A stretch of DNA of 64,000 nucleotides from an uncultured Mucilaginibacter sp. (GTDB taxonomy: Bacteria > Bacteroidota > Bacteroidia > Sphingobacteriales > Sphingobacteriaceae), in assembly GCF_913773635.1 (NCBI RefSeq), contig NZ_CAJYGQ010000013.1:233973-297972 (forward strand), in the 5' to 3' direction. Position numbers and translations under genes: made by a program. This document shows, in pieces, positions 1-15,366 of this stretch. Every line of letters begins with the position of its first letter. Within the stretch, counting starts at the first letter, position 1. Under the pieces are notes generated by a model that did not search any database, had not been told where the DNA came from, and worked only from the letters and a program-made list of their open reading frames with translations.

Positions 1-1797
1 TCAGTAAATAAATTAATTATTGACCCTGCTTACGTTGGCTTAATGCGTAACGCACAGGCAGCAATATCAACCAGTAATACCGTTACTGCTTTAATTGGTG
101 GTAAAGATGGTTTTGGCGGCGACATTCAGCCAGAAGAGATAACCGTATCTACTTCAAACGGTACTACTGCTACTAAAGGTACAATGGCATTTGGCGGTCC
201 GGTGTTTGCTTACCCAAGCCCTTACACCTCAAGCACCAACGCAACATTCAACACTACTCAATACCCACGCAGCGTTGGCCGTCCGGTTTACCTTGAGGCT
301 ACTCCTGATGCTATTGATGCTTCATTATTGTCATACATCAACGCTTCATTACCTGAAGGCTCACCACTGCCAACTACTCACCCTGAGTTTTTGACTACTA
401 ATGCGGTGTCTAACTTAAATATCACTGCTACTTCTGACGTTTGGATCACATTCGTTTCTGAAGGCGCCGGATACCTTAACACCCTGGCTTACTATACTTA
501 CCCAACCAACACCCCTCCTACAAGTGTTGATGATTTGGATAACGCTACGCTTATTTTCCCTAACGCTTCGGCAAACGGATCAGGCGGTGCTTTAAAACCG
601 GGTGATAAAGTAAAAATCGGTCGTTTTAATGCAGGTACTTCTATAGGCTTTGTATTAATTCAAAATGCATGGAATGGTAGCGGCGTATTAACCGGTAACG
701 CTAAATTCTACTCTGACTACAAATTGAATCCTGAAAGCACAGTAGCTAAAAAGAAACACGTAGTTACTTTATGGGATGATGTTCACAAATTATTCCTGAT
801 GGGCTTTGAAGACATCAACCGCGATAACGGATCTGACCAGGACTTTAATGACCTTGTGGTATATGCTACCTCTAACCCGGTAACCGGTATATCAAACAGC
901 GGTGTACCTGCAATTGACAAAGGTGGCGACGAAGATGGCGACGGTGTATTAGATGAACTAGATGCTTTCCCTAATGACGCTACTAAAGCTTACGTAAGCT
1001 ACTACCCTTCACAAACCGGTTATGCAAGCATTGCTTTTGAAGATAACTGGCCTAAAAAAGGCGACTTTGACCTTAACGACTTAGTAGTTAACTACCGCTA
1101 CACATTTGTAAGCAACGCCAGCAACCAGGTTGTTGAAATGAAAGGTGAATTTACTCCTTTAGCATCAGGCGCTTCATTCAAAAATGGTTTTGCGGTTCAG
1201 CTACCGGTTTCTGCTTCAGCAGTTAGCGCGGTTACCGGTCAAAGAAACATCAGCAACTACATCAGCTACGCAGCTAATGGTGTTGAAGCTGGCCAATCTA
1301 AAGCGGTTATTGTTCCTTTTGACAATCATGAGGCTTTACTTAGAAACCCTGACGGTGCATTCTTCATCAATACACTGATGGATAAAAACAAAGTTACCGG
1401 CAGCACCGCTACTGTAAACGTAACCTTTGCTTCACCTGTTGCGGCTTCAAACTTACAAGTTGCTAACTTCAATCCGTTCCTTATCAGTGATATGCGTCGC
1501 GGTTATGAAATACACTTACCTGGCTTTGCACCAACCGATAAAGCTACCAAATCACTTTTCGGTACTGATGATGATGCTTCGGTATTAAACAGCAACAAAA
1601 CTTACCTGTCAAAAGAAAACTGGCCATGGGCTATAAGCTTTGTGGGTGAGTACAAATATCCGGTTGAGTTACAACCTGTAAACCAAGCTTACTTACACTT
1701 CTCAGAGTGGGCATTATCTGGCGGCACTTCATATGCCGACTGGTACAGCAACACCGGAGTTGGTTTCAGAGACGCTTCTAAAATTTACTCAAAATAA
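1..1797 (+). CDS. LruC/DUF4842-domain protein with DUF4114-like domain (5' truncated by window edge)
   Basis: Frame is open from base 1 (SVNKLIIDPAYVGL-MRNA...), so the true start lies upstream. Two FED...DxDxNDLVV motifs (GFEDINRDNGSDQDFNDLVV, AFEDNWPKKGDFDLNDLVV), a DEDGDGVLD Ca-binding-like motif and the C-terminal WPWAI...YLHFSEW...DWY pattern recalled for LruC/DUF4842 proteins. Confidence 0.8.
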   Translation, partial: SVNKLIIDPAYVGLMRNAQAAISTSNTVTALIGGKDGFGGDIQPEEITVSTSNGTTATKGTMAFGGPVFAYPSPYTSSTNATFNTTQYPRSVGRPVYLEATPDAIDASLLSYINASLPEGSPLPTTHPEFLTTNAVSNLNITATSDVWITFVSEGAGYLNTLAYYTYPTNTPPTSVDDLDNATLIFPNASANGSGGALKPGDKVKIGRFNAGTSIGFVLIQNAWNGSGVLTGNAKFYSDYKLNPESTVAKKKHVVTLWDDVHKLFLMGFEDINRDNGSDQDFNDLVVYATSNPVTGISNSGVPAIDKGGDEDGDGVLDELDAFPNDATKAYVSYYPSQTGYASIAFEDNWPKKGDFDLNDLVVNYRYTFVSNASNQVVEMKGEFTPLASGASFKNGFAVQLPVSASAVSAVTGQRNISNYISYAANGVEAGQSKAVIVPFDNHEALLRNPDGAFFINTLMDKNKVTGSTATVNVTFASPVAASNLQVANFNPFLISDMRRGYEIHLPGFAPTDKATKSLFGTDDDASVLNSNKTYLSKENWPWAISFVGEYKYPVELQPVNQAYLHFSEWALSGGTSYADWYSNTGVGFRDASKIYSK

Positions 1798-2712: not shown

Positions 2713-2967
2713 ATGAGCACCTGGACCACCGTTTACAAAGGACATAAAATTACAGTAGAAAACAGCTGGATGGGCGGCGAACGCCTTTGGGTAAACGGCA
2801 CCCTGCAAGACGAGCAACTGGGCTGGGCCTTCCGCAGCCGCTTGTATGGCAGCATTCGCGTACCCGGTCAGGAAACCAAGCGCATTAAGGTCTCTTTGGG
2901 CACACCATCATTCTCGGTTGAATGCAGGATTTTTGTGGATGACGAGTTGGTGTTTTCGGGCAGGTAG
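2713..2967 (+). CDS. Small hypothetical protein (84 aa, beta-rich)
   Basis: ATG after an A-rich leader (aataaaactatg), host-like codon use, fills the gap between neighbours; no family recognised. Confidence 0.7.
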   Translation: MSTWTTVYKGHKITVENSWMGGERLWVNGTLQDEQLGWAFRSRLYGSIRVPGQETKRIKVSLGTPSFSVECRIFVDDELVFSGR

Positions 2968-3063
2968 ACTACTACTGCGGTTTGATCATTAAAGGGGGAA
3001 TGCTTTTTAGTAGTTTTATAGGATTATTCTAACAAAAAATATTAAATTCATTAAAAAGCACAA

Positions 3064-4059
3064 GTGAAATTTAAAGATAGAACCTTAATGCAAATTGCAG
3101 ATATGATTTGCGGAAATTCCACATCGGACAAAAGTTTTTTTGAATATAGAAGTAGCTCATACTTAACAAAATTTTTCAATGATGCTGATACAGACTATCA
3201 GCACGATGGTTCGACAAGAAATCGTTGGGTTGCTGAGGTTCTTCGTCAAATCCTTGACGAACCTCAACCGTATCCCAACACACCATCTGAAACGTTCTCT
3301 CGTGTCATCACAACTTTAATGGATCAAAGAGACGCGTCAAACGAGGGACTTGATCGTCCGAACGCTTTAAATGAACTTAACTCGGCTTTAATAAGAGAGG
3401 GCTATGAAGCATTCTATGCTGACGACAAAAAATGCTATTTAAAGCACATAGGCACTTCTACTATCGCAAAACCAGCCCCTAATCCACACAGACCATTTTC
3501 CACTACTGAATTAAAAAAACGTGAACAACTTACTTCTTATCTAAATATATGTAGTGAAGATGATTTAATATCTGAAATTCTATTACCACTGTTCAGACAA
3601 TTAGGATTTCATAGGATAACTGCCGCTGGACACAAAGACAAAGCATTGGAGTACGGAAAAGATATTTGGATGAAATATCTTTTGCCGACACAACATGTTC
3701 TTTACTTTGGATTGCAAGTAAAAAAAGGAAAACTTGATGCGTCTGGTGTAAGTAAGAATAGCTCTGCAAACGTTGCAGAAATTTATAATCAAGTTTTGAT
3801 GATGTTAGGTCATGAAATATTTGATCCAGAAATCGGCAAGAAAGTATTAGTTGATCATGCATTTATAGTTGCTGGCAGAGAAATCACCAAAGCAGCAAGG
3901 AATTGGCTTGGCGGTAAACTCGATGCTTCCAAGCGAAGCCAAATAATGTTCATAGATAGAGAAGACATTCTAAATCTTTACATTGTAACCAATTTGCCAC
4001 TACCGGACAAGGCTATACAGAGCCATGAAGTAAATGGGTATAACGACCTACCGTTTTAG
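3064..4059 (+). CDS. AbiJ-N-terminal-like domain fused to Mrr-like PD-(D/E)xK/QxK restriction endonuclease; candidate defence protein
   Basis: GTG start. The C-terminal half has SEDDL...LPLFRQLGF...EYGKD...GLQVK (Mrr_cat-like E..D..QxK) and ends IMFIDREDI. The N-terminus (TLMQIADMICG...YRSSSYLTKFF...GSTRNRWV) resembles AbiJ N-terminal domains by recall. Visibly AT-richer than dnaE. Confidence 0.65.
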   Translation: MKFKDRTLMQIADMICGNSTSDKSFFEYRSSSYLTKFFNDADTDYQHDGSTRNRWVAEVLRQILDEPQPYPNTPSETFSRVITTLMDQRDASNEGLDRPNALNELNSALIREGYEAFYADDKKCYLKHIGTSTIAKPAPNPHRPFSTTELKKREQLTSYLNICSEDDLISEILLPLFRQLGFHRITAAGHKDKALEYGKDIWMKYLLPTQHVLYFGLQVKKGKLDASGVSKNSSANVAEIYNQVLMMLGHEIFDPEIGKKVLVDHAFIVAGREITKAARNWLGGKLDASKRSQIMFIDREDILNLYIVTNLPLPDKAIQSHEVNGYNDLPF

Positions 4060-4097: not shown

Positions 4098-7000
4098 CTA
4101 CTTTAACATCGGCTGCACGTTAGTCAAACTATAAATTCCGGCAATTAAATCATCGCTTGGATTTACGCGCATGGTTTTGGATGGCAGGTCAATAAAAAGG
4201 TTATCTTCACCGTCTTTAATCATGAAACGCAGGGCGCAGTTTTTAACTTCGTATTTTTGATTATTAGCCAGTACCATTTCATTAAGGTTGTTAACCATAT
4301 CATCGTTAAGGCTATGCAAATGCATACAAATAGTGAGCGATTTGGTCATCTTATCGCGCATTTCTGATAGCAGATTAATTGACCCAAGGCGCATATCCCA
4401 GTTGTCCTTCTGGCGATACTTTTCTTCAACAGTTCCTTTCAACTGTACAAAGAAACCATCGCCAAGCAGGTTACGGAATTTAATATAATCATCGCCAAAA
4501 AGGGCAAACTCGTAGCTATCGTAGTAATCTTCGATTACAAAGGTGCCAAAAGGTTTACCGGTTTTAGTCATTTTGTGCTGTACGTTAGCCATTAGTCCCC
4601 CAATGCTCAGCTCGCCCATTCGGCGCAGTTGCGCAAAGCGCTCAACAACATCAGCCGGTGCTTCGCCCCCGCGCATGGTTACCAATACTTTTAAGTCTGA
4701 TACAGTATTCTGGCAATATCGCTCCAGCTCCAACTTATAGTTATCTAAAGGGTGACCGGTTAAATAAATACCAATCATATCCTTTTCGTACTTCAACTTT
4801 TCTATCAGCGCCCATTCTTCACAAACAGGCATGGCAGGCTCGGGTATATAGGCCTCAACGGTTCCACCAAATAATGATGATTGCGAACTGCTTTGCGTGT
4901 TTTGATAATCGTTGGAGTATTTAATTAATCGTTCGATACCGGTTAGCAAGCCATTTTCGGTTTTGGCAAAAAACTGTGCGCGGTTTAAACCAAAACTGTC
5001 GAACGCACCGCTGTACACCAGGTTTTCATAAGCCTTTTTATTTACGTTGCGGGTGTTGCTGCGCTGGGCAAAATCAAAAACCGATTTGTAAGGGCCTCGC
5101 TCATTGCGCTCATCAATTATACTTTCAATAGCTTTTTCGCCCACACCTTTTACACCGGTTAAGCCAAAGCGTACGTCTCCCTTTTTATTTACCGCAAAGG
5201 CCATGTCCGATTCGTTAACATCCGGCCCCAATACATTGATACCCATGCGGCGGGTCTCTTCCATAAAGAAAGATATTTTATCGATACTGTTTTGGTTATT
5301 CAGTACCGCCGCCATGTACTCTGATGGGTAATGTGCCTTTAAATAAGCGGTTTGGTAGGCCACAAACGCATAACATGTAGAGTGCGATTTGTTAAAAGCA
5401 TACTGGGCAAAGGCTTTCCAGTCGGTCCAAACCTTGGTAAGTTTATCTTTAGGGTGGCCTTTGGCCATTGCCCCATCCATAAACTGCGCCTCCATTTTGT
5501 TGAGTACCTCAATTTGCTTTTTACCCATAGCTTTACGCAAAACGTCGGCATCGCCTTTACTAAAGCCTGCCAGTTTTTGCGATAGAAGCATCACCTGTTC
5601 CTGGTATACGGTAATACCATAGGTTTCGCCCAGGTATTCTTCCATGTCGTCCAGGTCAAACGTCACATCTTCGAGGCCATGTTTACGTTTTATAAAGCTG
5701 GGTATATACTCAATCGGCCCTGGTCGGTACAGGGCATTCATGGCAATCAAATCTTCAAACCTGTCGGGCTTTAACTCACGCAGGTACATTTGCATACCAT
5801 CACTCTCAAACTGGAACGTACCGTTGGTATCACCGCGTTGGTACAGTTCGTAGGTTTTCTGGTCGTCTAACGGAATGTAATCTATATCAATATCACGGTC
5901 ATGGTTCTGCTTAATCATGCGCAGTGCATCCTTAATAATGGTTAGGGTTTTTAAGCCCAAAAAGTCCATCTTAATTACACCGGCATCTTCAATTACACGC
6001 CCGTCATACTGCGTTACAAGCAGGTCAGAGTCCTTGGCAGTGGCTACAGGCACAATGTTAGTCAGGTCATCGGGCGCAATAATAATACCTGCCGCGTGCA
6101 CACCGGTGTTACGCACCGAACCTTCCAGCTTTTCAGCCTCGCGCAGTACCGTAGCTTTTAAGTCGTTACCCTCTTTAATGGCCTTAAGTTCGGGCACCTG
6201 TTCTATTGCCTGTTTAAGGTTGATGCCCAGAGTATCGGGCACCAGTTTTTTAAGCGCGTTTACATCGCTTAGCGGCATGTCAAGCACCCGGCCAACATCT
6301 TGTATACTGGTGCGGGCAGCCATCGAACCATAGGTAATAATTTGCGCTACCTGGTTTTTACCATACTTATCAACCACGTAATCAATAACCCGTTGCCTAC
6401 CGGCGTCATCAAAGTCGGTATCAATATCGGGCATTGACTTACGGTCGGGGTTCAAAAAACGTTCGAACAGGAGGTTATACTTAATAGGATCGATATTGGT
6501 AATACCCGTACAGTATGCCACTACCGAACCTGCTGCCGACCCACGGCCAGGCCCGATGAATACGCCCATATTACGACCCTCTTTAATAAAATCGGCCACA
6601 ATGAGAAAGTAACCCGCAAAGCCCATGGTTTTAATGGTAAAAAGCTCAAAGTTTATGCGCTCTTCTACCTCGGGTGTCATTTCCTTATAGCGCTCGTAGG
6701 CCCCGGTAAAGGTTAAGTGCTTTAAGTATTCCCACTGATTTAACACATCAGATTCCGGTCCGTCGTGTATTTTAAACTCAGGTGGTATAGGGAAATTGGG
6801 TAGCATGATGTCGCGTTTCAGCTTCAACACTTCTACCTTATCAACAATTTCGTTCGTATTATCTAATGATTCAGGCAGGTCATGAAATAGTTTGCCCATT
6901 TCAGCCTGAGTTTTGAAGTAAAACTGATCGTTAGGAAATCCAAAACGATAGCCCCTTCCGCCCTCATCATCAGTTGCAATAGGCGTGCTTTGCATATCGC

Positions 7001-7682
7001 CCGTATTTACACACAGTAAAATATCATGTGCATTAGCATCCTGCTGATCTACATAGTGCGAGTCATTTGAGCAAATAACCTTAACGTTAAATTTTTTGGC
7101 AAATTTAAGTAAGGTGTTATTAATTATTTCCTGCTCGGGTATTTCATGACGCTGCAACTCTATATAATAGTCTTCGCCAAAAAGGTCAAGCCACCATTTA
7201 AACTCAGCCTCAGCCTCCTCTTCTGTACCCTTCAAAATAGCTTGTGGTACCGATGCGCCAATACAGCAGGTGGTTGCTATAAGTCCTTCGTGGTATTTAA
7301 GTATAAGCTCCTTATCAATACGTGGCCATTTACTGTATAGCCCTTCCATATAACCCAAAGAACATAACTTAATTAGGTTTTTATACCCCTGAGGATTCTT
7401 TGCTAAAAACAACTGATGATGACGAACGTCTTTTTTCTCTTTGGTAAACTGTTTTTTATGACGGTCTTCTACCACGTAAAACTCACAGCCTACAATGGGC
7501 TTTACATTGTGCTTGCCGGCTTCGGCTACAAACTTAAACACACCAAACATGTTACCATGATCGGTTATGGCAAGTGCTTTCATACCATCAGCAGCTGCCT
7601 TTTTATACAGCTTTGATATATCGGCGGCGCCATCTAAAAGTGAAAACTGGGTGTGTACGTGTAAGTGAGAAAAATCGGGCAT
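4098..7682 (-). CDS. dnaE: DNA polymerase III alpha subunit
   Basis: PHP domain HLHVHTQFSLLDG, GPGRGSAAGS, catalytic MPDIDTDF, KMDFLGL, YAFNKSH, C-terminal OB fold; no intein. Confidence 0.99.
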   Translation of the reverse strand: MPDFSHLHVHTQFSLLDGAADISKLYKKAAADGMKALAITDHGNMFGVFKFVAEAGKHNVKPIVGCEFYVVEDRHKKQFTKEKKDVRHHQLFLAKNPQGYKNLIKLCSLGYMEGLYSKWPRIDKELILKYHEGLIATTCCIGASVPQAILKGTEEEAEAEFKWWLDLFGEDYYIELQRHEIPEQEIINNTLLKFAKKFNVKVICSNDSHYVDQQDANAHDILLCVNTGDMQSTPIATDDEGGRGYRFGFPNDQFYFKTQAEMGKLFHDLPESLDNTNEIVDKVEVLKLKRDIMLPNFPIPPEFKIHDGPESDVLNQWEYLKHLTFTGAYERYKEMTPEVEERINFELFTIKTMGFAGYFLIVADFIKEGRNMGVFIGPGRGSAAGSVVAYCTGITNIDPIKYNLLFERFLNPDRKSMPDIDTDFDDAGRQRVIDYVVDKYGKNQVAQIITYGSMAARTSIQDVGRVLDMPLSDVNALKKLVPDTLGINLKQAIEQVPELKAIKEGNDLKATVLREAEKLEGSVRNTGVHAAGIIIAPDDLTNIVPVATAKDSDLLVTQYDGRVIEDAGVIKMDFLGLKTLTIIKDALRMIKQNHDRDIDIDYIPLDDQKTYELYQRGDTNGTFQFESDGMQMYLRELKPDRFEDLIAMNALYRPGPIEYIPSFIKRKHGLEDVTFDLDDMEEYLGETYGITVYQEQVMLLSQKLAGFSKGDADVLRKAMGKKQIEVLNKMEAQFMDGAMAKGHPKDKLTKVWTDWKAFAQYAFNKSHSTCYAFVAYQTAYLKAHYPSEYMAAVLNNQNSIDKISFFMEETRRMGINVLGPDVNESDMAFAVNKKGDVRFGLTGVKGVGEKAIESIIDERNERGPYKSVFDFAQRSNTRNVNKKAYENLVYSGAFDSFGLNRAQFFAKTENGLLTGIERLIKYSNDYQNTQSSSQSSLFGGTVEAYIPEPAMPVCEEWALIEKLKYEKDMIGIYLTGHPLDNYKLELERYCQNTVSDLKVLVTMRGGEAPADVVERFAQLRRMGELSIGGLMANVQHKMTKTGKPFGTFVIEDYYDSYEFALFGDDYIKFRNLLGDGFFVQLKGTVEEKYRQKDNWDMRLGSINLLSEMRDKMTKSLTICMHLHSLNDDMVNNLNEMVLANNQKYEVKNCALRFMIKDGEDNLFIDLPSKTMRVNPSDDLIAGIYSLTNVQPMLK

Positions 7683-7712: not shown

Positions 7713-7921
7713 CGAAAAACCGCTCCCTGTTAAGGGTGCAACCGGCAAAAGTTATCTACAATAAATGTAAGTTATTAAGATTTACAGCTATAAAAAAACA
7801 TTTCGTGCGGTTCAAAGTTTTATAAGCAATTTGCCGTTGCTCTCGTCAGTTTAGCCACAAAGGCATGCGCTTTGTTGTATACAAAGCACCACACTATTCT
7901 TCATCTACAAATTATAATAAA

Positions 7922-10900
7922 TTGGGAAAATTTGGACGTATAGCTTTAAAAACCATTTTATGGATAGTTGCGAGTGTTATATTTCTGGTATTGCTTGTAG
8001 TAATTCTTATACAGGTACCCGCTGTACAACAGTTTGCAAAAAATAAAGCCGTAAACTTTTTAGAAGGTAAAATTGGCACCAAAGTAGAAATCGGACACAT
8101 TACCATTGGCTTTCCTAAAATGCTGGTATTGGAAAAGGTTTACTTTGAAGACCAGAAACGCGACACCCTTATAGCAGGTGATAAACTTAAGGTTGATATT
8201 AGCATGCTTAAGCTGCTTAAAAGCCAGGTTGAAGTTAACGAGATAAACCTGCAGGGTATTACGGCCAAGGTTAGCCGTGGTGCTGACAGTACTTTCAACT
8301 TCGATTACATTATAAAAGCTTTTGCAAGCGAGAATAAAAAAGAGCCAAAGCCGGAAGATACCACATCTACCCTCAAAATATCACTTGATAAAGTTGTACT
8401 TGATAGAATAAACATTGCTTACAAAGATGTAACAACCGGCAACGACGTTAAATTTTTGCTGGGCCATTTTGATACACGCATCAAAGATTTTGATTTGGAT
8501 AAGATGAAATTCAGCATTCCCAAAATCAATTTATCAGACGTTAATGCGCGCATCATTCAAACTCCTGCGGGTTCATCAATAGCGCAGGCGGCTACCGTTG
8601 ATACGGCTACTACCCCACTTAGCCTTGACTTAGATTTAGGTACTATTGATGTTAACCGGGTTAAGGTTGATTACCGCACCAACGAAATGAAAGCCAACGT
8701 TAACCTCGGCAAATTCTTGGTGGAGATGAATGATATTGATTTGAAAAATCAGCGCGTTGGCGTTAAAAGCATCACACTTGATGATACTAAGGCTGGCTTA
8801 CGCTTGGCCAAACCACAAACAGTGGTTACCGCAGTGGTTGAAACTGCTAAAAAAATTGACACTTTAGTTACGCCGCCGCAAAGCAACAAGCCTTGGTACG
8901 CCACCATTGGTAAAATAAGCCTTGCCAATAATGATATTAAATTTGACAATGATGCCCAGGCACCACTGCGCCGAGGATTGGATTTTGGGCACATGGACAT
9001 TAAAGGCCTGAGCACTGACATAGAAGACCTTTCATATAGCCCCGACACTATTGCCGGTAAGGTTAACCAATTTACTTTTGCCGATAAAAGCGGGTTTAAG
9101 CTTAATGAATTCCGCACGGCGTTTATGTATGGCGCTAAAAACGCTTACCTCAAAGACCTTTATGTTGAAACACCAAATACAGTCATCCAGCGCAATGTAG
9201 AGGTGGCTTACCCTTCAATAGAAGCCATCACGAAAAACATCGGTTTATTAAGTGTTGATGCCAATGTTGATGGAACACGCATTGGCTTGCGTGATGTGTT
9301 GCTGCTTATGCCAACAATGGCCTCTATGGAACCATTCCGCAGCACGCCAAATGCATCATTCAGGGTAAACGGCCGGGTAGCCGGTATGGTGAATGATTTG
9401 CGCATTTCAAACTTTGAAGTTTGGGGCTTGTCAAATACGCACATTAAAACATCGGCCGTATTAAAAGGCATGCCTGATGTTAAAAAGGCGTACTTTGATG
9501 TTAACCTTGCCGACTTTACTACCAGCCGCCGCGACATTTACCGTTTAGCACCGCGTGGCACCATTCCGCCAAGCGTAAGCATACCCGAGCGAATGAGCCT
9601 TAGCGGTAAATTAAAAGGTAGCATGCAAAATTTGACTACTCAGCTTAATTTACGCTCTAGCTATGGAAACTTATCTGCAGCGGCCAATGTAAAAAACGCT
9701 ATGGACATGAAGCGTATTTCTTACGCTGCTAATGTAAAAGCTATTAACCTCAATGCCGGAGCGCTTACCAAACAGCCTAAAATGGTAGGTCGCCTTACAC
9801 TAAGTGCCAATGTTAAAGGCGCCGGGGCCGATCCTAAAAACCTTAATGTTGATTTTAGCGCGAACGTAGCAAGCGCACAAATACAAGGTTATAACTACCG
9901 CAACCTGGTTGCAAAAGGCAGCGCCCGCAATGGCGCCTATGTAGCCAAAGCCACCATGCGCGACCCCAACATCAACTTCACGCTTGATGCTAAAGCCAAC
10001 ATGAGCAAAAAGTACCCGTCGGTAAATGCAACGCTTTTGGTTGACAGCATAAATTTACAACGCCTCAACTTTGTAAAGGATGATATGCGCTTCCACGGTA
10101 AAATTGTTGCTGATTTGCCAACTGCCGACCCTGATTACTTAAATGGCAGTGTTTTACTTACTGATATGCTTTTGGTAAATAAAGGCCAGCGTATACAGTT
10201 AGATACCGTAAGTGTTATTTCAACAGCTAACGCTGATAGCAGCAGCCTGCGCCTTAAAACTCCTTTTTTAACCGCCCGCTTAGGTGGCAAATACAAACTT
10301 ACCGAAGTTGGCGCCGCGCTGCAGGATAATATAAACAAGTACTTCAATACAGCATTGGCCGCAGCACCTGCTGTTCAAAGTAAAGCAAAGCCGGTTAAAT
10401 ATTCTCCGCAACAATTTAGCTTTAACCTAAAAATGGTTAAAACGCCATTAATAACGCAGTTTGTGCCCGATTTAAAACAGCTTGACCCCGTGATAATAAA
10501 TGGACGTTTTGATAGCCAGTCGGGTTTATTACTTGTAAATGGCAGCATACCAAAAGTTATTTATGGAACCAATACCATTGATAACGGTAAGCTTAACATC
10601 AACACCAATAACAATGCTCTTAATTACGGCCTTACATTTGACCAGGTAAAAGTTGGCGAAAGCTTAAAACTGCTGTACCCTGGCCTAACCGGTAATGCAC
10701 AAAATGACAAGCTTAACCTTAGCCTGCAAGTGCGCGATGCAGCACGCAAAGAACGCTACCGCATTGCAGGCGTGTTTAGCGTGTTGCCAAACGAATACCA
10801 GTTTAGCTTTTTACAGGATGGCTTATTGTTAGATTACATGGCTTGGGCTGTAAATCCAAACAATGCATTCCAGTTTGGCAGCAAAGGCATTTTAGCGCGC

Positions 10901-13102
10901 GATTTTTCAATTACCAACAGCAATCAAGTACTGAGCGTTACCAGCAATCCGCAGCAATTAAACGCTCCCTTAACGGTTAACTTTAACAATTTTCATATTG
11001 AAACCCTTACCCGTTTAGCGCAGCAAGACTCATTGCTGGTTGGCGGAACTATAAACGGAAACGCCACAGTAAGCAACCTGCAGGCCTCTCCTGTTTTCGT
11101 AGCTGATATGAATGTTGGCGATTTTAACTTTAAAGGTGATACTGTAGGCAATATTGCCATAAAAGTAAATAACCAAACTGCCAATGCTTATGCAGCCAAC
11201 GTAAACATAACCGGAAAAGGTAACCAGGTTGACTTAACCGGCATGTATTATACTGATACCCCAGAAGGCAGATTAGACATGAACCTGAACATTGTAAACT
11301 TAAGTATGAAGAGCATTGAAGGCTTCAGCTTTGGCAGTATCAGGAGAGCAACCGGTAACATAACCGGCGGATTGAAAATTACCGGCACAGCATCTGCACC
11401 AAACGTACGCGGCGATGTAAACTTTAACCAGGTGGGCTTCAACGTTTCTATGCTCAATTCATATTTTACCATGCCGAAAGAAAGCATTAGCTTTAACAAT
11501 GAAGGTATACGCTTTAATGACTTTACCATGGTTGATTCCACTGGAAATAAAGCAGTTATAAGCGGAGCTGTTTACACTAAAACGTATAAAGACTTTAGCT
11601 TTGGTTTAGATATCAATGCCAATAACTTCCGTGCAGTAAACTCTACCCGTGCCGATAACAAGTTGTTTTACGGTAAGCTTTACATTGATACACGTGTAAA
11701 AATTCGTGGTGATATGGCTAAACCTGTGGTTGATGCAAGCTTGACCGTTGATCCGCAGACAGACATGACCTTTGTGTTGCCAACCACCGACCCAAGCATT
11801 GAAGACCGTAAAGGCGTTGTTGAATTCATCGATGCCGATGCACCAAAACTTGATTCAATTCTACTGGCTAAAAGACTTGATTCGTTGCGTAAATCTGAAC
11901 TTACAGGTTTGGATGTTAACGCCACCATCAATGTAAGTAAAGAAGCCAACTTTAACATTGTGATTGATGAGCGCAACGGCGATGTGGTTCACATTAAAGG
12001 TGATGCACAGCTGAGCGCAGGTATTGATCCAAGTGGAAAAATCAACTTAACAGGTACTTATACAGTTAATCAGGGTTCTTATGAGCTATCATACGGTCCG
12101 GTTAATCGTTTGTTTAGGTTTAAACAGGGAAGTACCATTGTTTGGAACGGTGACCCTACCGACGCCAATGTTGACCTTACTGCTATTTACGTAGCCAACG
12201 TACCCCCTATTGATTTGGTTGAAAACCAATCGGGCGGTACTGATGCGCAAAGCACAGTTTACAAGCAAAAGCTTCCTTTCAATGTAAACTTAAACATGCA
12301 GAACAAATTGCTGACCCCTAAAATTGGGTTTGATATTGTACTACCTGACAGCAACTACACGGTATCACAAACAGTAGTTAATACTGTTAACACACGCCTT
12401 GAGCAAATACGCCGCGATCCTAATGAAATGAACAAGCAGGTGCTAGGTGTACTTGTACTGGGCCATTTTATTGGTGATAACCCATTACAAAGCCAGGGCG
12501 GCAGTGCCGGTGTTGAAGGAACCATACGTAACAGCGTAAGCGGTTTACTTTCAAACCAGTTGAACAAACTTGCCGGTGATTTAATTGGCGGCGTTGACCT
12601 TAACTTTGATTTGCAGTCGGGCCAGGATTATTCTACGGGTACCGAGCAGAACCGTACCGACTTAAACGTTGGCTTATCTAAACGCTTCCTAAATGATCGT
12701 TTAACGGTTACCGTTGGTAATAACTTTATGCTCGAAGGCAAACAACAGCCTGGCCAGCGTACAAGCACCATTGCGGGCAATGTAATGTTAAATTACCGCT
12801 TAACTAAAGATGGCCGCTACGCACTGCGTGCATACCGCCGCGACCAGTTTATTGTAATACAAGGCCAGGTAATTGAAACAGGTGTGGGCTTCTCGTTAAA
12901 TGTTGACTACAACCGCTTCAAAGAAATTTTCTCGAAAACTAGTCGCGAAGAAAGGGCACTTATACGTGAACGCAAACGTGAGGAAAAAGAGAAAAAGGAG
13001 CAACAAGAACAAAAAGAGAAGGATCAGCAACCTGCCGAAGAACCTAAAAAGGCAACAACAGACAGTACCTCAACCGAAAGCATATCTACATTTGAACCAT
13101 GA
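7922..13102 (+). CDS. tamB: Translocation and assembly module protein TamB (AsmA-like, DUF490 C-terminus)
   Basis: About 1726 aa; N-terminal membrane anchor (ILWIVASVIFLVLLVVILIQ), beta-taco repeats, C-terminal WNGDPTDA...KRFLNDRLTVTVG. Likely TTG start at 7922 (track start 7865). Overlaps the next gene (ATGA). Confidence 0.9.
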   Translation: MGKFGRIALKTILWIVASVIFLVLLVVILIQVPAVQQFAKNKAVNFLEGKIGTKVEIGHITIGFPKMLVLEKVYFEDQKRDTLIAGDKLKVDISMLKLLKSQVEVNEINLQGITAKVSRGADSTFNFDYIIKAFASENKKEPKPEDTTSTLKISLDKVVLDRINIAYKDVTTGNDVKFLLGHFDTRIKDFDLDKMKFSIPKINLSDVNARIIQTPAGSSIAQAATVDTATTPLSLDLDLGTIDVNRVKVDYRTNEMKANVNLGKFLVEMNDIDLKNQRVGVKSITLDDTKAGLRLAKPQTVVTAVVETAKKIDTLVTPPQSNKPWYATIGKISLANNDIKFDNDAQAPLRRGLDFGHMDIKGLSTDIEDLSYSPDTIAGKVNQFTFADKSGFKLNEFRTAFMYGAKNAYLKDLYVETPNTVIQRNVEVAYPSIEAITKNIGLLSVDANVDGTRIGLRDVLLLMPTMASMEPFRSTPNASFRVNGRVAGMVNDLRISNFEVWGLSNTHIKTSAVLKGMPDVKKAYFDVNLADFTTSRRDIYRLAPRGTIPPSVSIPERMSLSGKLKGSMQNLTTQLNLRSSYGNLSAAANVKNAMDMKRISYAANVKAINLNAGALTKQPKMVGRLTLSANVKGAGADPKNLNVDFSANVASAQIQGYNYRNLVAKGSARNGAYVAKATMRDPNINFTLDAKANMSKKYPSVNATLLVDSINLQRLNFVKDDMRFHGKIVADLPTADPDYLNGSVLLTDMLLVNKGQRIQLDTVSVISTANADSSSLRLKTPFLTARLGGKYKLTEVGAALQDNINKYFNTALAAAPAVQSKAKPVKYSPQQFSFNLKMVKTPLITQFVPDLKQLDPVIINGRFDSQSGLLLVNGSIPKVIYGTNTIDNGKLNINTNNNALNYGLTFDQVKVGESLKLLYPGLTGNAQNDKLNLSLQVRDAARKERYRIAGVFSVLPNEYQFSFLQDGLLLDYMAWAVNPNNAFQFGSKGILARDFSITNSNQVLSVTSNPQQLNAPLTVNFNNFHIETLTRLAQQDSLLVGGTINGNATVSNLQASPVFVADMNVGDFNFKGDTVGNIAIKVNNQTANAYAANVNITGKGNQVDLTGMYYTDTPEGRLDMNLNIVNLSMKSIEGFSFGSIRRATGNITGGLKITGTASAPNVRGDVNFNQVGFNVSMLNSYFTMPKESISFNNEGIRFNDFTMVDSTGNKAVISGAVYTKTYKDFSFGLDINANNFRAVNSTRADNKLFYGKLYIDTRVKIRGDMAKPVVDASLTVDPQTDMTFVLPTTDPSIEDRKGVVEFIDADAPKLDSILLAKRLDSLRKSELTGLDVNATINVSKEANFNIVIDERNGDVVHIKGDAQLSAGIDPSGKINLTGTYTVNQGSYELSYGPVNRLFRFKQGSTIVWNGDPTDANVDLTAIYVANVPPIDLVENQSGGTDAQSTVYKQKLPFNVNLNMQNKLLTPKIGFDIVLPDSNYTVSQTVVNTVNTRLEQIRRDPNEMNKQVLGVLVLGHFIGDNPLQSQGGSAGVEGTIRNSVSGLLSNQLNKLAGDLIGGVDLNFDLQSGQDYSTGTEQNRTDLNVGLSKRFLNDRLTVTVGNNFMLEGKQQPGQRTSTIAGNVMLNYRLTKDGRYALRAYRRDQFIVIQGQVIETGVGFSLNVDYNRFKEIFSKTSREERALIRERKREEKEKKEQQEQKEKDQQPAEEPKKATTDSTSTESISTFEP

Positions 13103-15366
13103 TTAAAAAATCAGCATATACACTTCTAACACTCACGGTTATTGCAAGTAGTTGCAGTACCACCAAACAATTACCAGCCGGACAAAAGCTGTACACCGGT
13201 GCTGATATTAATTTTACTGATAAAGACATATCAAAAAAAGAGCAAAGTCTTATAAAAAGCGATTTACAAAGCTTATTACGACCTAAACCAAATGGTAAGA
13301 TAGGCCCGTTCAGATTTAAGCTGTGGGTATATCAAAAAACGCGCACAAACAAAACCAAAGGCTTTAAGCACTGGCTTAACACCAAGTTTGGCGAAGCGCC
13401 TGTCTTAGTTAGTGCTGTTGATCTTACGCAAAACAGCTCCATACTACAAAACCGTCTTCAAAACCGCAGTTATTTCCAGGCACAGGTTACGGGCGATACA
13501 GTAGGAAAAGAAAAAGTTGCTAAAGCTGTTTACACAATATCGGCCGGACCATCATACAAGTACCGCAACATTATATGGCCGTCAGATAGTAAAGATCCGC
13601 TTGATACGGCAATTGCCGGTACCTCAGCTCAAACTATATTGAAGAAGGGTGAGGCTTACAATTTAGACGCTATAAAGGCCGAAAGACTACGTATTGATGC
13701 ACGTGTAAAAGAAAAGGGCTTTTATTACTTTGCACCCGAAAACCTCATTTTACGTGTAGACAGCACAGTTGGTAATCATGAAATTGATGGCTATGTTAAG
13801 GTTAAAGACGAGGTGAGCGAACGTGCACGTAGAATTTACACCATTGATAATATTTACATTTACCCCGCTTACAGCCTGCGCGATACTTCTTTAAGGTTGC
13901 AGGACAAAGTACCTTATAACTGGTACAACGTAATTGACAGCAGACGCCGCCGCACCATACGCCCATATGTGTTTAAAAATACGGTTTTGTTACGCCCGGG
14001 AGAAGTTTATAATCGTACCGATCATACCAATTCATTAAGCAGGTTTGTTGAATTAGGACCATACAAGTTTGTAAAAAACAGGTTTGAAGACGTATCTGCT
14101 GATTCCTCAAAACTGAATGTGTTTTACTTTTTGACTCAGTACCCAAAAAAATCATTATCATTTGATGCGTTGGCTCGTACAACATCAGCTAATTTCAACG
14201 GTACGCAAGTAAACGTAAACTGGCGCCATCGCAATGCTTTTTTAGGTGCTGAAGCACTTACCATTACCTTATTTGGCAGCACCGACGGACAGATATCAGG
14301 AAACGCCGGTGGTGGTAACGCTCTTTATCAATATGGCGCACAGGCTACATTATCATGGCCGCGGTTTATTAGTCCGTTTAATTTTAAGGCCGATAATGCT
14401 TACATACCCCGCACCAATCTGAGTGCTGGTTACTCAATCATTAATCGCTCAGGCTTGTATAATTTGAGCTCTATCAATGGTTCATTTGGCTACAACTGGA
14501 AACAAAGTGTACACAAAAGTCACGAGTTAAACCTGTTGAACGTTACTTATGTAAAACCTACCAACGTAACTCAGGAGTATACAGATAGTATTGTTACTAC
14601 ACGTAACCCTACGCTTAAGCACGTTATTGACCCGCAGTTTACGTTTGGGCCAAGCTATAGCTATACGTATACCAACACTACCGAAACTTATCGTACCAAT
14701 TCCATTTACTATAATGGCCGCATAAGTACCTCAGGCATGTTAACAGGTTTACTTACCGGTGCCGATACCATTGGCGGTAATGCGAAGAAAGTGTTTGGTA
14801 CCAATTTCAATCAGTATGTAAAACTGGAGAATGAAATACGTTTCTTTCATAAATTGGGTGTAAAAAGCTCATTTGCAGCACGCTTCATTGCAGGCGTAGG
14901 TATACCAATGGGCAATTCAACCATATTACCGTACAGCCAGCAATTTTTTATTGGCGGTGCTAACAGCTTACGCGGTTTCAGGGCGCGTTCACTAGGTCCG
15001 GGTACGGTTGACCCTACCCAATACATCAGCGGTACTACAGGCTTTATTGCCGATCAGTCGGGCGATATTAAATTGGAGGCAAGTATTGAGTACCGTCCGC
15101 ATTTATTTAGCATAGTATACGGCGCTCTGTTTGCTGATGCAGGTAACATATGGAATGCGCGCGGCCATCAACCGGGTGGTACTTTCAGCAGCAACTTCCT
15201 TAAGCAACTGGCAACCGACGTAGGTTTCGGTTTACGGTTTGATGCAAGTGTGTTAGTGCTGCGTACCGATTTTGGTTTCCCGCTTACCAAACCATTTACG
15301 CAAAGTAACCCGGCAATTAACTACGATAAAATGGTATTTAACCTTGCTATAGGTTATCCGTTTTAA
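13099..15366 (+). CDS. Omp85 family BamA/TamA-like outer membrane protein, lipidated (TamL type)
   Basis: Lipobox IASSC, POTRA-like N-terminus, Omp85 loop-6 motif GGANSLRGFRAR, C-terminal LAIGYPF; translationally coupled to tamB. Confidence 0.9.
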   Translation: MIKKSAYTLLTLTVIASSCSTTKQLPAGQKLYTGADINFTDKDISKKEQSLIKSDLQSLLRPKPNGKIGPFRFKLWVYQKTRTNKTKGFKHWLNTKFGEAPVLVSAVDLTQNSSILQNRLQNRSYFQAQVTGDTVGKEKVAKAVYTISAGPSYKYRNIIWPSDSKDPLDTAIAGTSAQTILKKGEAYNLDAIKAERLRIDARVKEKGFYYFAPENLILRVDSTVGNHEIDGYVKVKDEVSERARRIYTIDNIYIYPAYSLRDTSLRLQDKVPYNWYNVIDSRRRRTIRPYVFKNTVLLRPGEVYNRTDHTNSLSRFVELGPYKFVKNRFEDVSADSSKLNVFYFLTQYPKKSLSFDALARTTSANFNGTQVNVNWRHRNAFLGAEALTITLFGSTDGQISGNAGGGNALYQYGAQATLSWPRFISPFNFKADNAYIPRTNLSAGYSIINRSGLYNLSSINGSFGYNWKQSVHKSHELNLLNVTYVKPTNVTQEYTDSIVTTRNPTLKHVIDPQFTFGPSYSYTYTNTTETYRTNSIYYNGRISTSGMLTGLLTGADTIGGNAKKVFGTNFNQYVKLENEIRFFHKLGVKSSFAARFIAGVGIPMGNSTILPYSQQFFIGGANSLRGFRARSLGPGTVDPTQYISGTTGFIADQSGDIKLEASIEYRPHLFSIVYGALFADAGNIWNARGHQPGGTFSSNFLKQLATDVGFGLRFDASVLVLRTDFGFPLTKPFTQSNPAINYDKMVFNLAIGYPF

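What the first reader, a model, noticed from the sequence alone, without database searches (positions are those of the whole stretch)
3064..4059. Lone AbiJ-NTD-like / Mrr-like nuclease gene inserted beside dnaE: candidate single-gene anti-phage system
Seen: a 331-aa two-domain protein whose C-terminal half carries an Mrr_cat-like signature (SEDDL...LFRQLGF...EYGKD...GLQVK). It is AT-richer by eye than dnaE (many TTA/AGA/ATA codons), convergent with dnaE, with no methyltransferase partner in its unit and no mobility gene. Established: AbiJ N-terminal domains are fused to varied toxic effectors (HEPN, REase) in abortive-infection proteins. Inference: a sensor-effector defence protein, either abortive infection or modification-dependent restriction, sitting in a small variable slot of otherwise core DNA.
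Basis: partly seen in the sequence, partly recalled or inferred. Interest (0 to 1): 0.7.

Follow-up and report, generated by a model that had tools for sequence, protein, structure and literature searches.

The report
Solitary Mrr-like nuclease with SSB-mimic tail

Summary
The ORF is real (3064-4059, +, 331 aa, GTG start). It is AT-richer than its surroundings, convergent with dnaE, and not found in 40 related genomes searched.

Its C-terminal half is a divergent Mrr_cat-type PD-(D/E)xK nuclease. hhalign against 29 Mrr_cat domains gives 94% probability, and the top Foldseek matches are MspJI and FokI. The motif D200...Q218-x-K220 is invariant.

The N-terminal domain models confidently but has no fold match in PDB or BFVD.

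233 of 249 full-length family members end in D-D-D-[LI]-P-F, which is the SSB C-terminal tip. That tail follows each host's own SSB tail: EPPF in Actinomycetota, DLPF in Bacteroidota (this genome included), and a 12-residue match in CPR bacteria. Permuted pairings never reached the observed match (0 of 20,000). Codon usage shows convergence, not copied DNA.

The gene has no conserved neighbour in 79 loci. It often sits among defence or mobile genes and is under strong purifying selection (dN/dS about 0.1; 69% identity between phyla).

A defence role is inferred, not shown. Earlier agents of this scan found the same family and tail at least 18 times on other DNA. I found no paper describing it.

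The parts
3064..4059 (+). Whole gene: 331 aa, GTG start, stop at 4057-4059
   Evidence: ORF list and translation. A 100% identical cluster representative and 3819 related clusters were found. Homologues start at the same position.
2968..3063 (+). AT-rich upstream intergenic region, presumed promoter region (not shown)
   Evidence: Sequence. The sigma-70 consensus scan found nothing here, but that scan does not cover Bacteroidota-type promoters.
3064..3447 (+). N-terminal domain (residues 1-128): five helices plus a beta-hairpin, fold unassigned; candidate sensor or regulatory domain
   Evidence: AF2 domain model with pLDDT 92 and pTM 0.88. No PDB or BFVD match at E<=0.001. Invariant residues G17, F26, Y28, G49, R52, W55. 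Other N-domains replace it in relatives that keep the nuclease and the tail.
3448..3501 (+). Inter-domain linker (residues 129-146), contains the conserved P-N-P-H-R-P
   Evidence: AF2 secondary structure and lower pLDDT. Conservation in A4.
3502..3999 (+). Mrr_cat-type PD-(D/E)xK nuclease domain (residues 147-312)
   Evidence: hhalign against 29 Mrr_cat domains: 94%, E 1.4e-7, 140 columns. Foldseek matches to MspJI 4f0p, FokI 1fok, EcoT38I and the Cap4 nuclease. 11 of 73 members give sub-threshold Mrr_cat hits.
3556..3561 (+). E165-D166 on the first core helix (invariant acidic pair)
   Evidence: Invariant in 73 sequences. Codons read.
3628..3657 (+). Loop G189-H-K-D-K-A-L-E-Y-G198: nearly invariant yet modelled with pLDDT<50
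   Evidence: Low-confidence segments 189-192 and 194-198 against near-invariance. This is an insertion relative to Mrr_cat.
3661..3663 (+). D200, predicted catalytic aspartate
   Evidence: Invariant. Aligns with the D of the Mrr_cat 'G-I-D'.
3715..3723 (+). Q218-V-K220, the Mrr-type QxK catalytic motif
   Evidence: Q218 and K220 are invariant. They align with the Mrr_cat Q-x-K. Mutating the equivalent Q355 abolishes MspJI activity (PMC2938202).
4000..4038 (+). Variable, disordered linker (residues 313-325)
   Evidence: pLDDT about 52-55. Variable in sequence and length across the family.
4039..4056 (+). SSB-Ct-like tip Y-N-D-L-P-F (residues 326-331)
   Evidence: 233 of 249 full-length members end in PF; consensus DDD[LI]PF. 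The host SSB of this genome ends A-D-N-L-P-F. The tail follows the host SSB tail across phyla.

Best explanation
The gene encodes a stand-alone DNA endonuclease of the Mrr/MspJI branch of the PD-(D/E)xK superfamily, with catalytic residues D200, Q218 and K220.

The protein has three parts. First comes an undescribed, swappable N-terminal domain that most likely senses or regulates. Then comes the nuclease domain. Last is a short disordered linker ending in a copy of the host SSB C-terminal tip.

I infer that the tip docks the nuclease onto proteins carrying an SSB-Ct-binding pocket. These could be host replication or repair enzymes at forks and gaps, or phage and plasmid proteins that must bind host SSB. 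DNA cleavage would then be coupled to replication of invading DNA, making this a one-gene immune system.

Shown here: the fold, the motif, the tail and its tracking of the host SSB tail, the solitary and accessory nature of the gene, and strong purifying selection.

Inferred only: nuclease activity, what the tail binds, what the N-domain senses, and the defence role.
For: Nuclease domain:
- hhalign gives 94% probability, E 1.4e-7 over the whole Mrr_cat domain.
- Foldseek's top hits are MspJI, FokI and EcoT38I.
- E165, D166, D200, Q218 and K220 are invariant.
- The motif matches the published Mrr (D/E)...(D/E/Q)xK.

Tail:
- 94% of full-length members end in PF after an acidic run.
- This genome's SSB ends ADNLPF and the protein ends YNDLPF.
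- In 35 genomes the tail matches its own host's SSB tail better than permuted hosts. Positions -8 to -3 give 2.63 identical residues against 1.65 +/- 0.16, reached by 0 of 20,000 permutations. With phylum groups as units, 37 of 362,880 permutations reach the observed value.
- Identical residues often use different codons, so the match arose by convergence, not by copying DNA.
- A CPR pair nested inside the actinomycete clade has switched to the CPR SSB tail.

Solitary gene: no neighbour family occurs in more than 3 of 79 loci.

Context:
- Integrase islands, an Eco57I-type methyltransferase/XhoI restriction-modification pair, a PIN-domain gene and a NACHT gene.
- MmeI, pAgo, DRT and MADS genes.
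- VapBC, Abi and S-4TM genes on plasmids.

Accessory gene: the only match among 41 genomes is the window's own.

Constraint: 68.8% identity between phyla, against 36.1% for the host SSB OB domains. dS is saturated and dN/dS is about 0.11.

Modularity: relatives with a different N-domain keep the nuclease and the tail.
Against: - There is no experimental evidence of any kind.
- PADLOC 2.0 gives no defence-family hit except a weak match to the N-terminus of Stk2, E about 1e-3.
- There was no match in 50,697 phage records.
- Many immediate neighbours are ordinary metabolic genes, and in this window the neighbours are not defence genes.
- Such slow evolution is unusual for immune genes.
- The independent tail switches number only about 4-6 on the tree, so the permutation figures overstate independence.
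- In this genome the tip is only a partial match: 3 of the last 8 residues.
- The AF2 model does not show what the tail binds.
Confidence: 0.55

Rival explanations
1. It is a conventional type IV (modification-dependent) restriction enzyme. The N-terminal domain would be a new reader of modified DNA, the Mrr-like domain would cut, and the SSB-like tip would only help localise the enzyme to replicating DNA.
For: Mrr_cat homology and the D...QxK motif. The two-domain layout of a variable N-domain plus a conserved C-terminal nuclease is the published Mrr/MspJI plan. There is no cognate methyltransferase, as expected for type IV enzymes. Several loci lie in restriction-modification or defence neighbourhoods.
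Against: The N-domain has no similarity to known readers (winged helix, SRA, and so on) in PDB. Specificity domains of type IV enzymes are usually diverse, whereas this N-domain is 55-70% identical across phyla. The reading does not explain why the tail must track the host SSB so closely.
Confidence: 0.2
2. It is a selfish or establishment factor of mobile elements, not host immunity. The SSB-like tip would compete with host SSB for partners such as exonucleases, helicases and restart proteins, to the benefit of the plasmid or island that carries it, or to exclude rival elements.
For: The gene is on 47 plasmid records, 25 of them conjugative, and on integrase islands. Earlier notes of this scan place it in prophage cargo sites (not checked here). 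Host-matched tails are what a competitor for host pockets would need.
Against: An invariant catalytic motif under strong purifying selection points to DNA cleavage, not mere competition. In this window there is no mobile element around it. On the plasmids examined it sits among toxin-antitoxin and Abi-type genes, not in a transfer leading region.
Confidence: 0.15
3. It is an AbiJ-type abortive-infection protein. An AbiJ N-terminal sensor domain would be fused to a nuclease in place of HEPN, and would kill the infected cell.
For: Two of 73 members touch AbiJ_NTD3 at E 0.064. hhalign repeatedly aligns the same 45-residue stretch, a helix followed by G-F-E and a hairpin. There is a weak PADLOC hit to the N-terminus of Stk2.
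Against: Profile-profile probability is only 4-7%. P0001 itself has no Pfam hit. True AbiJ proteins found here carry Abi_C/HEPN, not Mrr_cat. AbiJ proteins have no SSB tail.
Confidence: 0.08
4. It is a housekeeping repair or replication nuclease that happens to lie next to dnaE.
For: It is adjacent to dnaE. It carries an SSB-related tail and is very highly conserved.
Against: It was not found in 24 other species of the genus or in 16 other families of the class. The dnaE flank holds unrelated genes in relatives. Contexts in other genomes are unrelated to dnaE. The gene has atypical GC.
Confidence: 0.03

Closest known systems
MspJI / AspBHI / EcoKMrr: Mrr_cat (PF04471) type IV modification-dependent restriction endonucleases
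   Same: Same C-terminal nuclease fold and the same D...(Q/E)xK catalytic motif. Both have two domains, with the nuclease at the C-terminus. Neither has a partner methyltransferase. Both are stand-alone genes.
   Different: The protein is below the Pfam threshold. It has an inserted, invariant G-H-K-D-K-A-L-E-Y loop before the catalytic D. Its N-domain resembles no known modification reader. It carries a host-matched SSB-Ct tail that no described Mrr-type enzyme has, as far as my literature searches show. It evolves far more slowly.
FokI cleavage domain and the nuclease heads of Cap4 and EcoT38I
   Same: Structural neighbours of the nuclease domain.
   Different: Different N-terminal modules, and the matches carry only marginal E-values. 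None has an SSB-like tail.
Bacterial SSB C-terminal tip (SSB-Ct, D-D-D-I-P-F) and its partner network
   Same: The last 6-12 residues copy the host SSB tip, and they follow a disordered linker as in SSB.
   Different: There is no OB fold (no PF00436 hit). The tail is attached to a nuclease, not to a DNA-binding hub.
AbiJ (AbiJ_NTD3 + Abi_C/HEPN) abortive-infection proteins
   Same: Similar size and a two-domain sensor-effector layout. Both are solitary genes in defence contexts. There is a weak local similarity in one helix-hairpin stretch.
   Different: The effector is Mrr-type, not HEPN. Homology of the N-domain is not established. AbiJ has no SSB tail.

Membership tests
Mrr_cat / PD-(D/E)xK restriction-endonuclease superfamily | Restriction-endonuclease-like alpha/beta core fold | tested here: met
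   AF2 model with pLDDT 88. Top Foldseek PDB hits: MspJI (probability 1.0), FokI, EcoT38I, Cap4 nuclease, EndoMS, EcoO109I.
Mrr_cat / PD-(D/E)xK restriction-endonuclease superfamily | Profile-level homology to Mrr_cat domains | tested here: met
   hhalign of the family C-domain against 29 Mrr_cat domains taken from genomes of the same class: 94% probability, E 1.4e-7, 140 aligned columns.
Pfam PF04471 Mrr_cat (formal family membership) | Score above the Pfam gathering threshold | tested here: not met
   P0001 has no Pfam hit at E<=1. 11 of 73 members give only sub-threshold hits, best E 0.0011.
Mrr_cat / MspJI type IV enzymes | Catalytic motif (D/E)...(D/E/Q)xK | tested here: met
   D200, Q218 and K220 are invariant in 73 sequences and align with the G-I-D and Q-x-K of Mrr_cat. 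The motif is as published (PMC2938202).
Mrr_cat / MspJI type IV enzymes | N-terminal domain that reads modified DNA (winged helix, SRA-like) | tested here: not met
   The N-domain model (pLDDT 92) has no PDB or BFVD match at E<=0.001.
Mrr_cat / MspJI type IV enzymes | Cleavage only of modified DNA | not testable with these tools
   Needs biochemistry.
AbiJ abortive-infection family | AbiJ N-terminal domain (for example AbiJ_NTD3, PF18860) | tested here: inconclusive
   P0001 has no hit. 2 of 73 members hit at E 0.064. hhalign probability is 7% against 3 AbiJ_NTD3 domains and 4% against about 120, although both runs align the same 45-residue stretch.
AbiJ abortive-infection family | C-terminal Abi_C/HEPN effector | tested here: not met
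   The C-terminal domain is Mrr-type. True AbiJ proteins carry PF14355.
SSB family | OB-fold ssDNA-binding domain (PF00436) | tested here: not met
   No Pfam hit. The model has no OB fold.
SSB family | Acidic C-terminal tip ending in [ILVP]-P-F after a disordered linker | tested here: met
   The protein ends Y-N-D-L-P-F. The family consensus is DDD[LI]PF in 233 of 249 members. The tail has low pLDDT.
Known anti-phage systems (PADLOC-DB 2.0) | Match to a model of a described or candidate defence protein | tested here: not met
   Only a weak hit to the first 66 positions of the Stk2 model, E 9.5e-4.

The most novel reading that the evidence does not exclude
The tail is bait. Phage recombinases and replication proteins must dock on the host's SSB C-terminal tip; RecT compatibility with a host, for example, follows the last seven SSB residues (PMC13490951). 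A nuclease that displays a faithful copy of that tip would be seized by such proteins during infection, and that binding would switch it on. This would be a decoy or guard design, in which an immune effector is armed with a mimic of an essential host hub peptide that the virus cannot afford to stop recognising.
Probability: 0.25. Interest if true: 0.85.

Novelty: new variant of a known kind. Interest (0 to 1): 0.72.

Why it matters
The SSB C-terminal tip is the universal docking peptide of bacterial genome maintenance. A natural nuclease family that carries a host-matched copy of it would show a new way to couple DNA cleavage to replication or repair, or to sense invaders that depend on host SSB.

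The family is large: 3819 clusters at 90% identity, spread over a dozen phyla. It is unnamed and is annotated only as 'hypothetical protein'. It also occurs on enterobacterial plasmids, so it can be tested directly in laboratory E. coli.

Its extreme conservation, greater than that of the host SSB itself, implies an interaction with something that hardly changes. That is unusual for an accessory, defence-island gene.

Tried and rejected
1. Direct family assignment failed. Pfam, NCBIfam and PHROGs gave nothing for P0001, and PADLOC gave only a weak hit to the Stk2 N-terminus.
2. Sequence searches of PDB, with the single sequence and with a profile, gave only chance-level hits to TetR, talin and FtsZ.
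3. AbiJ_NTD3 homology was tested three ways: hmmscan of 73 members, hhalign against 3 domains, and hhalign against about 120 domains. It was not established.
4. The N-domain fold was searched in PDB and BFVD with no match.
5. The upstream methyltransferase and the 84-aa ORF were considered as partners and rejected. The methyltransferase is of the small-molecule type, its 'mad2' PADLOC hit covers only the SAM-binding fold, and neither gene recurs beside family members.
6. Gene conversion from the host ssb gene was considered as the source of the tail and rejected for most pairs, because identical residues use different codons.
7. Recent inter-phylum transfer was considered as the reason for the high identity and rejected, because dS is saturated in 360 of 433 pairs.
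8. A mobile-element boundary was looked for in the window. No flanking repeats or mobility genes were found.
9. The sigma-70 promoter and terminator scan was uninformative.
11. Literature searches for a described nuclease carrying an SSB-tail mimic found none.
Full report
THE OBSERVATION

Window 3064-4059 (+) is an open frame of 331 codons starting with GTG. Homologues start M-K-F-K-x-R-T-L at exactly this position, so the GTG is the start and not the ATG nine codons downstream.

The gene has GC 37.4% and GC3 29.8%. One-kilobase windows of the 64-kb window average 41.8 +/- 2.4%, and only 4% of them are as low.

The gene is convergent with dnaE (4098-7682, -; PHP, DNA_pol3_alpha, finger and HHH_6 domains), with 38 bp between the stops. 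The genes to its left are:
- an LruC/DUF4842 protein;
- a class I SAM methyltransferase of the BioC/UbiE type;
- an 84-aa ORF with no family and an oddly high GC of 52.9%.

To the right of dnaE lie TamB- and TamA-like genes. No integrase, transposase or flanking repeat was found.

THE GENE IS ACCESSORY AND THE SLOT IS VARIABLE

The protein has one copy in its own genome. It was not found in 24 other species of the genus or in 16 other families of the class; 34 of the 41 genomes searched, the window's own included, are at least 90% complete.

DNA similarity to relatives stops at the dnaE stop codon. The nearest relative with shared synteny keeps the pseudouridine synthase and NUDIX genes on one side and dnaE on the other. 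Between them it holds DUF1501, DUF1800, glyoxalase and TfoX genes instead. Another relative has thioredoxin and DUF58 genes there. This is therefore a variable slot between core genes, but not a recognisable defence hotspot.

On a tree of 79 family members the window's protein sits in a Bacteroidota clade with Hydrotalea, Pedobacter, Sphingobacterium and Flavobacterium. This fits its low GC and suggests acquisition from within the phylum. Another agent's note calls the genome a Mucilaginibacter; I did not check this.

THE FAMILY

The family is large and unnamed.
- There are 3819 clusters at 90% identity with E<=0.001, nearly all 320-340 aa, with no precomputed Pfam domain. They are labelled 'hypothetical protein', apart from one UniRef 'restriction endonuclease'.
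- There are 978 representatives at 50% clustering.
- There are 47 plasmid records, 25 of them conjugative, and no match in 50,697 phage records.

Members come from Pseudomonadota, Actinomycetota, Bacteroidota, Acidobacteriota, Verrucomicrobiota, Chloroflexota, Planctomycetota, Gemmatimonadota, Thermodesulfobacteriota, Cyanobacteriota, Bipolaricaulota and CPR bacteria.

THE NUCLEASE DOMAIN

AlphaFold2 on a 73-sequence alignment gives pLDDT 88. The top Foldseek PDB hits are MspJI (probability 1.0), FokI, EcoT38I, the Cap4 nuclease, EndoMS and EcoO109I. All are restriction-endonuclease folds. The E-values are only marginal (2e-3), because the whole two-domain model was used as the query.

Pfam's Mrr_cat model does not reach threshold: the window protein has no hit, and 11 of 73 members have sub-threshold hits. 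I therefore collected 29 Mrr_cat domains from genomes of the same class and compared profiles. hhalign gave 94% probability, E 1.4e-7, over 140 columns covering the whole domain.

In that alignment D200 falls on the D of the Mrr_cat 'G-I-D', and Q218-x-K220 falls on its 'Q-x-K'. E165, D166, D200, Q218 and K220 are invariant in 73 sequences. This is the published Mrr-type motif (D/E)...(D/E/Q)xK, and the D334A and Q355A mutations abolish MspJI activity (PMC2938202).

The domain is thus a divergent member of the Mrr_cat superfamily. It has an inserted loop, G-H-K-D-K-A-L-E-Y-G, that is nearly invariant yet modelled with pLDDT below 50.

THE N-TERMINAL DOMAIN

Modelled alone from 41 sequences, the N-domain gives pLDDT 92 and pTM 0.88: five helices and a beta-hairpin. 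It has no match at E<=0.001 in PDB or in BFVD.

- hmmscan: the window protein has no hit, and 2 of 73 members hit AbiJ_NTD3 at E 0.064.
- hhalign against three AbiJ_NTD3 domains found in the phylum: 7% probability.
- hhalign against about 120 AbiJ N-termini: 4% probability.

Both hhalign runs align the same 45-residue helix-hairpin stretch, so a very remote relationship is not excluded, but it is not shown.

The domain is highly conserved, at 55-71% identity across phyla. It is nevertheless replaceable: relatives P0125 and P0133 have unrelated N-termini but keep the nuclease domain at 68-77% identity, and they keep the tail.

THE TAIL

That is the C-terminal tip of bacterial SSB (SSB-Ct), which docks on many replication and repair proteins (for example PMC5872125). 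The tail follows a variable linker that AF2 leaves disordered.

In this genome the main SSB, encoded next to mutY, ends A-D-N-L-P-F, and the protein ends Y-N-D-L-P-F. Both are less acidic than the E. coli type.

THE TAIL FOLLOWS THE HOST

I extracted the family member's tail and the host's main SSB tail from 34 other genomes plus this one.
- Actinomycete members end in E-P-P-F, A-P-F or T-P-F, often with an upstream P-W. Their hosts' SSBs end in D-E-P-P-F with an upstream D-D-P-W.
- In Bacteroidota both end in D-L-P-F.
- An acidobacterial member and its host SSB share I-T-D-D-D-I-P-F.
- A Variovorax member and its host SSB share D-M-D-D-D-I-P-F.
- A Bipolaricaulota member ends in E-V-P-F, like its host.
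- Two CPR members match their hosts' SSB in 8 and 10 of the last 12 residues.
- A cyanobacterial member has no tail at all, and the one SSB found in that genome ends Q-D-E-F. This is a single case.

Excluding the constant P-F, positions -8 to -3 match the own host at 2.63 residues on average. Permuted hosts give 1.65 +/- 0.16, and 0 of 20,000 permutations reach the observed value. With phylum-level groups as the units, 37 of 362,880 permutations reach it.

There is a caveat. On the tree, actinomycete members form nearly one clade, so the truly independent switches number perhaps four to six. One clear case is the CPR pair: it is nested inside the actinomycete clade and has changed from the PPF type to the CPR type.

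The resemblance is not copied DNA. Identical residues often use different codons: 0 of 7 identical codons in the Bradyrhizobium pair, 4 of 10 in the Saccharibacteria pair, and 1 of 6 in Phytohabitans. The tail is therefore kept like the host's by selection.

THE GENE IS SOLITARY AND OFTEN IN DEFENCE OR MOBILE NEIGHBOURHOODS

Among 1768 ORFs within 3.5 kb of the gene in 79 loci, no family recurs in more than three loci.

Contexts examined:
- A Burkholderia integrase island.
- A Streptomyces locus with a NACHT ATPase and an IS110 element.
- A Syntrophobacteraceae island with an Eco57I-type methyltransferase, XhoI, a PIN domain and a DEAD helicase.
- An E. coli IncI/K plasmid stretch with VapBC, DUF4238, S-4TM and Abi genes.

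The 56 immediate neighbours in 28 loci include three integrases, an MmeI-type IIG enzyme, a pAgo, a DRT reverse transcriptase, MADS components, CHAT and PADLOC candidate systems. They also include ordinary metabolic genes. This is an enrichment by eye, not a formal statistic.

CONSTRAINT

Between phyla the core of the protein is 68.8% identical on average (range 60-81%). The OB domains of the same hosts' SSBs are 36.1% identical, and the family is the more conserved of the two in all 433 pairs.

Synonymous sites are saturated or undefined in 360 of 433 inter-phylum pairs and never fall below 1.1. dN is about 0.26 and dN/dS about 0.11. The similarity therefore reflects strong purifying selection over long times, not recent spread.

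HOW IT MOST LIKELY WORKS

Shown: a catalytically intact Mrr-type nuclease domain, a swappable N-domain, a disordered tail that mimics the host SSB tip and tracks it, no partner gene, an accessory distribution, and strong constraint.

Inferred: the tail engages proteins with SSB-Ct pockets in trans. An interaction purely within the protein would not need to follow the host's SSB.

Two versions fit. In the first, the tail docks the nuclease on host fork or repair enzymes. In the second, it is bait for phage or plasmid proteins that must bind host SSB. Phage RecT function in a host follows the host's last seven SSB residues (PMC13490951), which makes the bait version plausible.

I put about 0.55 on the overall reading of a one-gene immune nuclease coupled through the SSB-tail mimic. 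The rivals are a conventional type IV enzyme whose tail only localises it, a mobile-element factor that competes with SSB, and an AbiJ-type abortive-infection protein. A housekeeping role is largely excluded by the distribution.

NOVELTY

I found no paper describing a natural nuclease with an SSB-Ct mimic. All database names are 'hypothetical protein'.

Earlier agents of this scan have met this family at least 18 times in at least 17 other genomes and noticed the same tail. Two notes also say that it follows the host SSB. I reached the tail independently from the alignment before reading those notes.

This report adds:
- the permutation test;
- the codon evidence for convergence;
- the nested CPR switch;
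- the comparison of constraint with host SSB;
- the profile-level Mrr_cat proof;
- the negative fold and AbiJ results for the N-domain;
- this Bacteroidota example, with its degenerate, host-like tip.

LIMITS

No multimer modelling was available. The defence-context enrichment was not tested formally.

Noticed in passing
window 2713-2967 (+): An 84-aa ORF between the methyltransferase and the nuclease gene has GC 52.9% and GC3 64.7%, far above the window mean of 41.8%. It has no Pfam, NCBIfam, PADLOC or PHROG hit. It may be a separately acquired small gene, or not a gene at all.
   Followed up: partly
window 1-1797 (+), continuing upstream of the window: An LruC-domain / DUF4842 / DUF4114 protein (699 aa from its longest start) has several paralogues elsewhere in this genome (contig C7) and in relatives. 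It is not syntenic with dnaE in other species.
   Followed up: partly
L024 (own genome, contig C9) 1483-1815: A second SSB paralogue of 110 aa lacks any acidic tail or P-F tip. The main SSB (L023, next to mutY) ends A-D-N-L-P-F.
   Followed up: no
L161 6218-7981 and L162 6205-7981 (E. coli and Klebsiella plasmids): In two different enterobacterial plasmids the family member lies about 140-160 bp downstream of a vapBC toxin-antitoxin pair, with otherwise different surroundings. The three genes may travel together there. No such pairing was seen in the 79 chromosomal loci.
   Followed up: partly
window 3628-3657 (residues 189-198): The loop G-H-K-D-K-A-L-E-Y-G just before the catalytic aspartate is nearly invariant across phyla, yet it is the only internal segment AF2 models with pLDDT below 50. 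It is an insertion relative to Mrr_cat, so it may be a regulatory or partner- or DNA-induced element.
   Followed up: no
L069 (Leptolyngbya MAG); L154 (its SSB): The cyanobacterial family member stops right after the globular domain and has no SSB-like tail. The only SSB detected in that genome ends Q-D-E-F instead of P-F. This is one case only. Two Streptomyces members (L060, L099) also lack the tail.
   Followed up: partly
P0125, P0133 (relatives): These proteins keep the nuclease domain (68-77% identical) and an SSB-like tail (I-D-D-L-P-F; D-P-W-G-P-P-P-F) but have unrelated N-terminal domains of about 100 aa. This indicates domain shuffling at the N-terminus.
   Followed up: partly
window 7865-15366 (+): TamB-like (1745 aa) and Omp85/TamA-like (755 aa) genes lie divergent from dnaE. 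They are ordinary envelope biogenesis genes.
   Followed up: no
L164 704-2412: A true AbiJ (AbiJ_NTD3 + Abi_C) gene in a Bacteroidota genome overlaps by 4 bp with an upstream 263-aa ORF of unknown function, which may be a partner gene.
   Followed up: no
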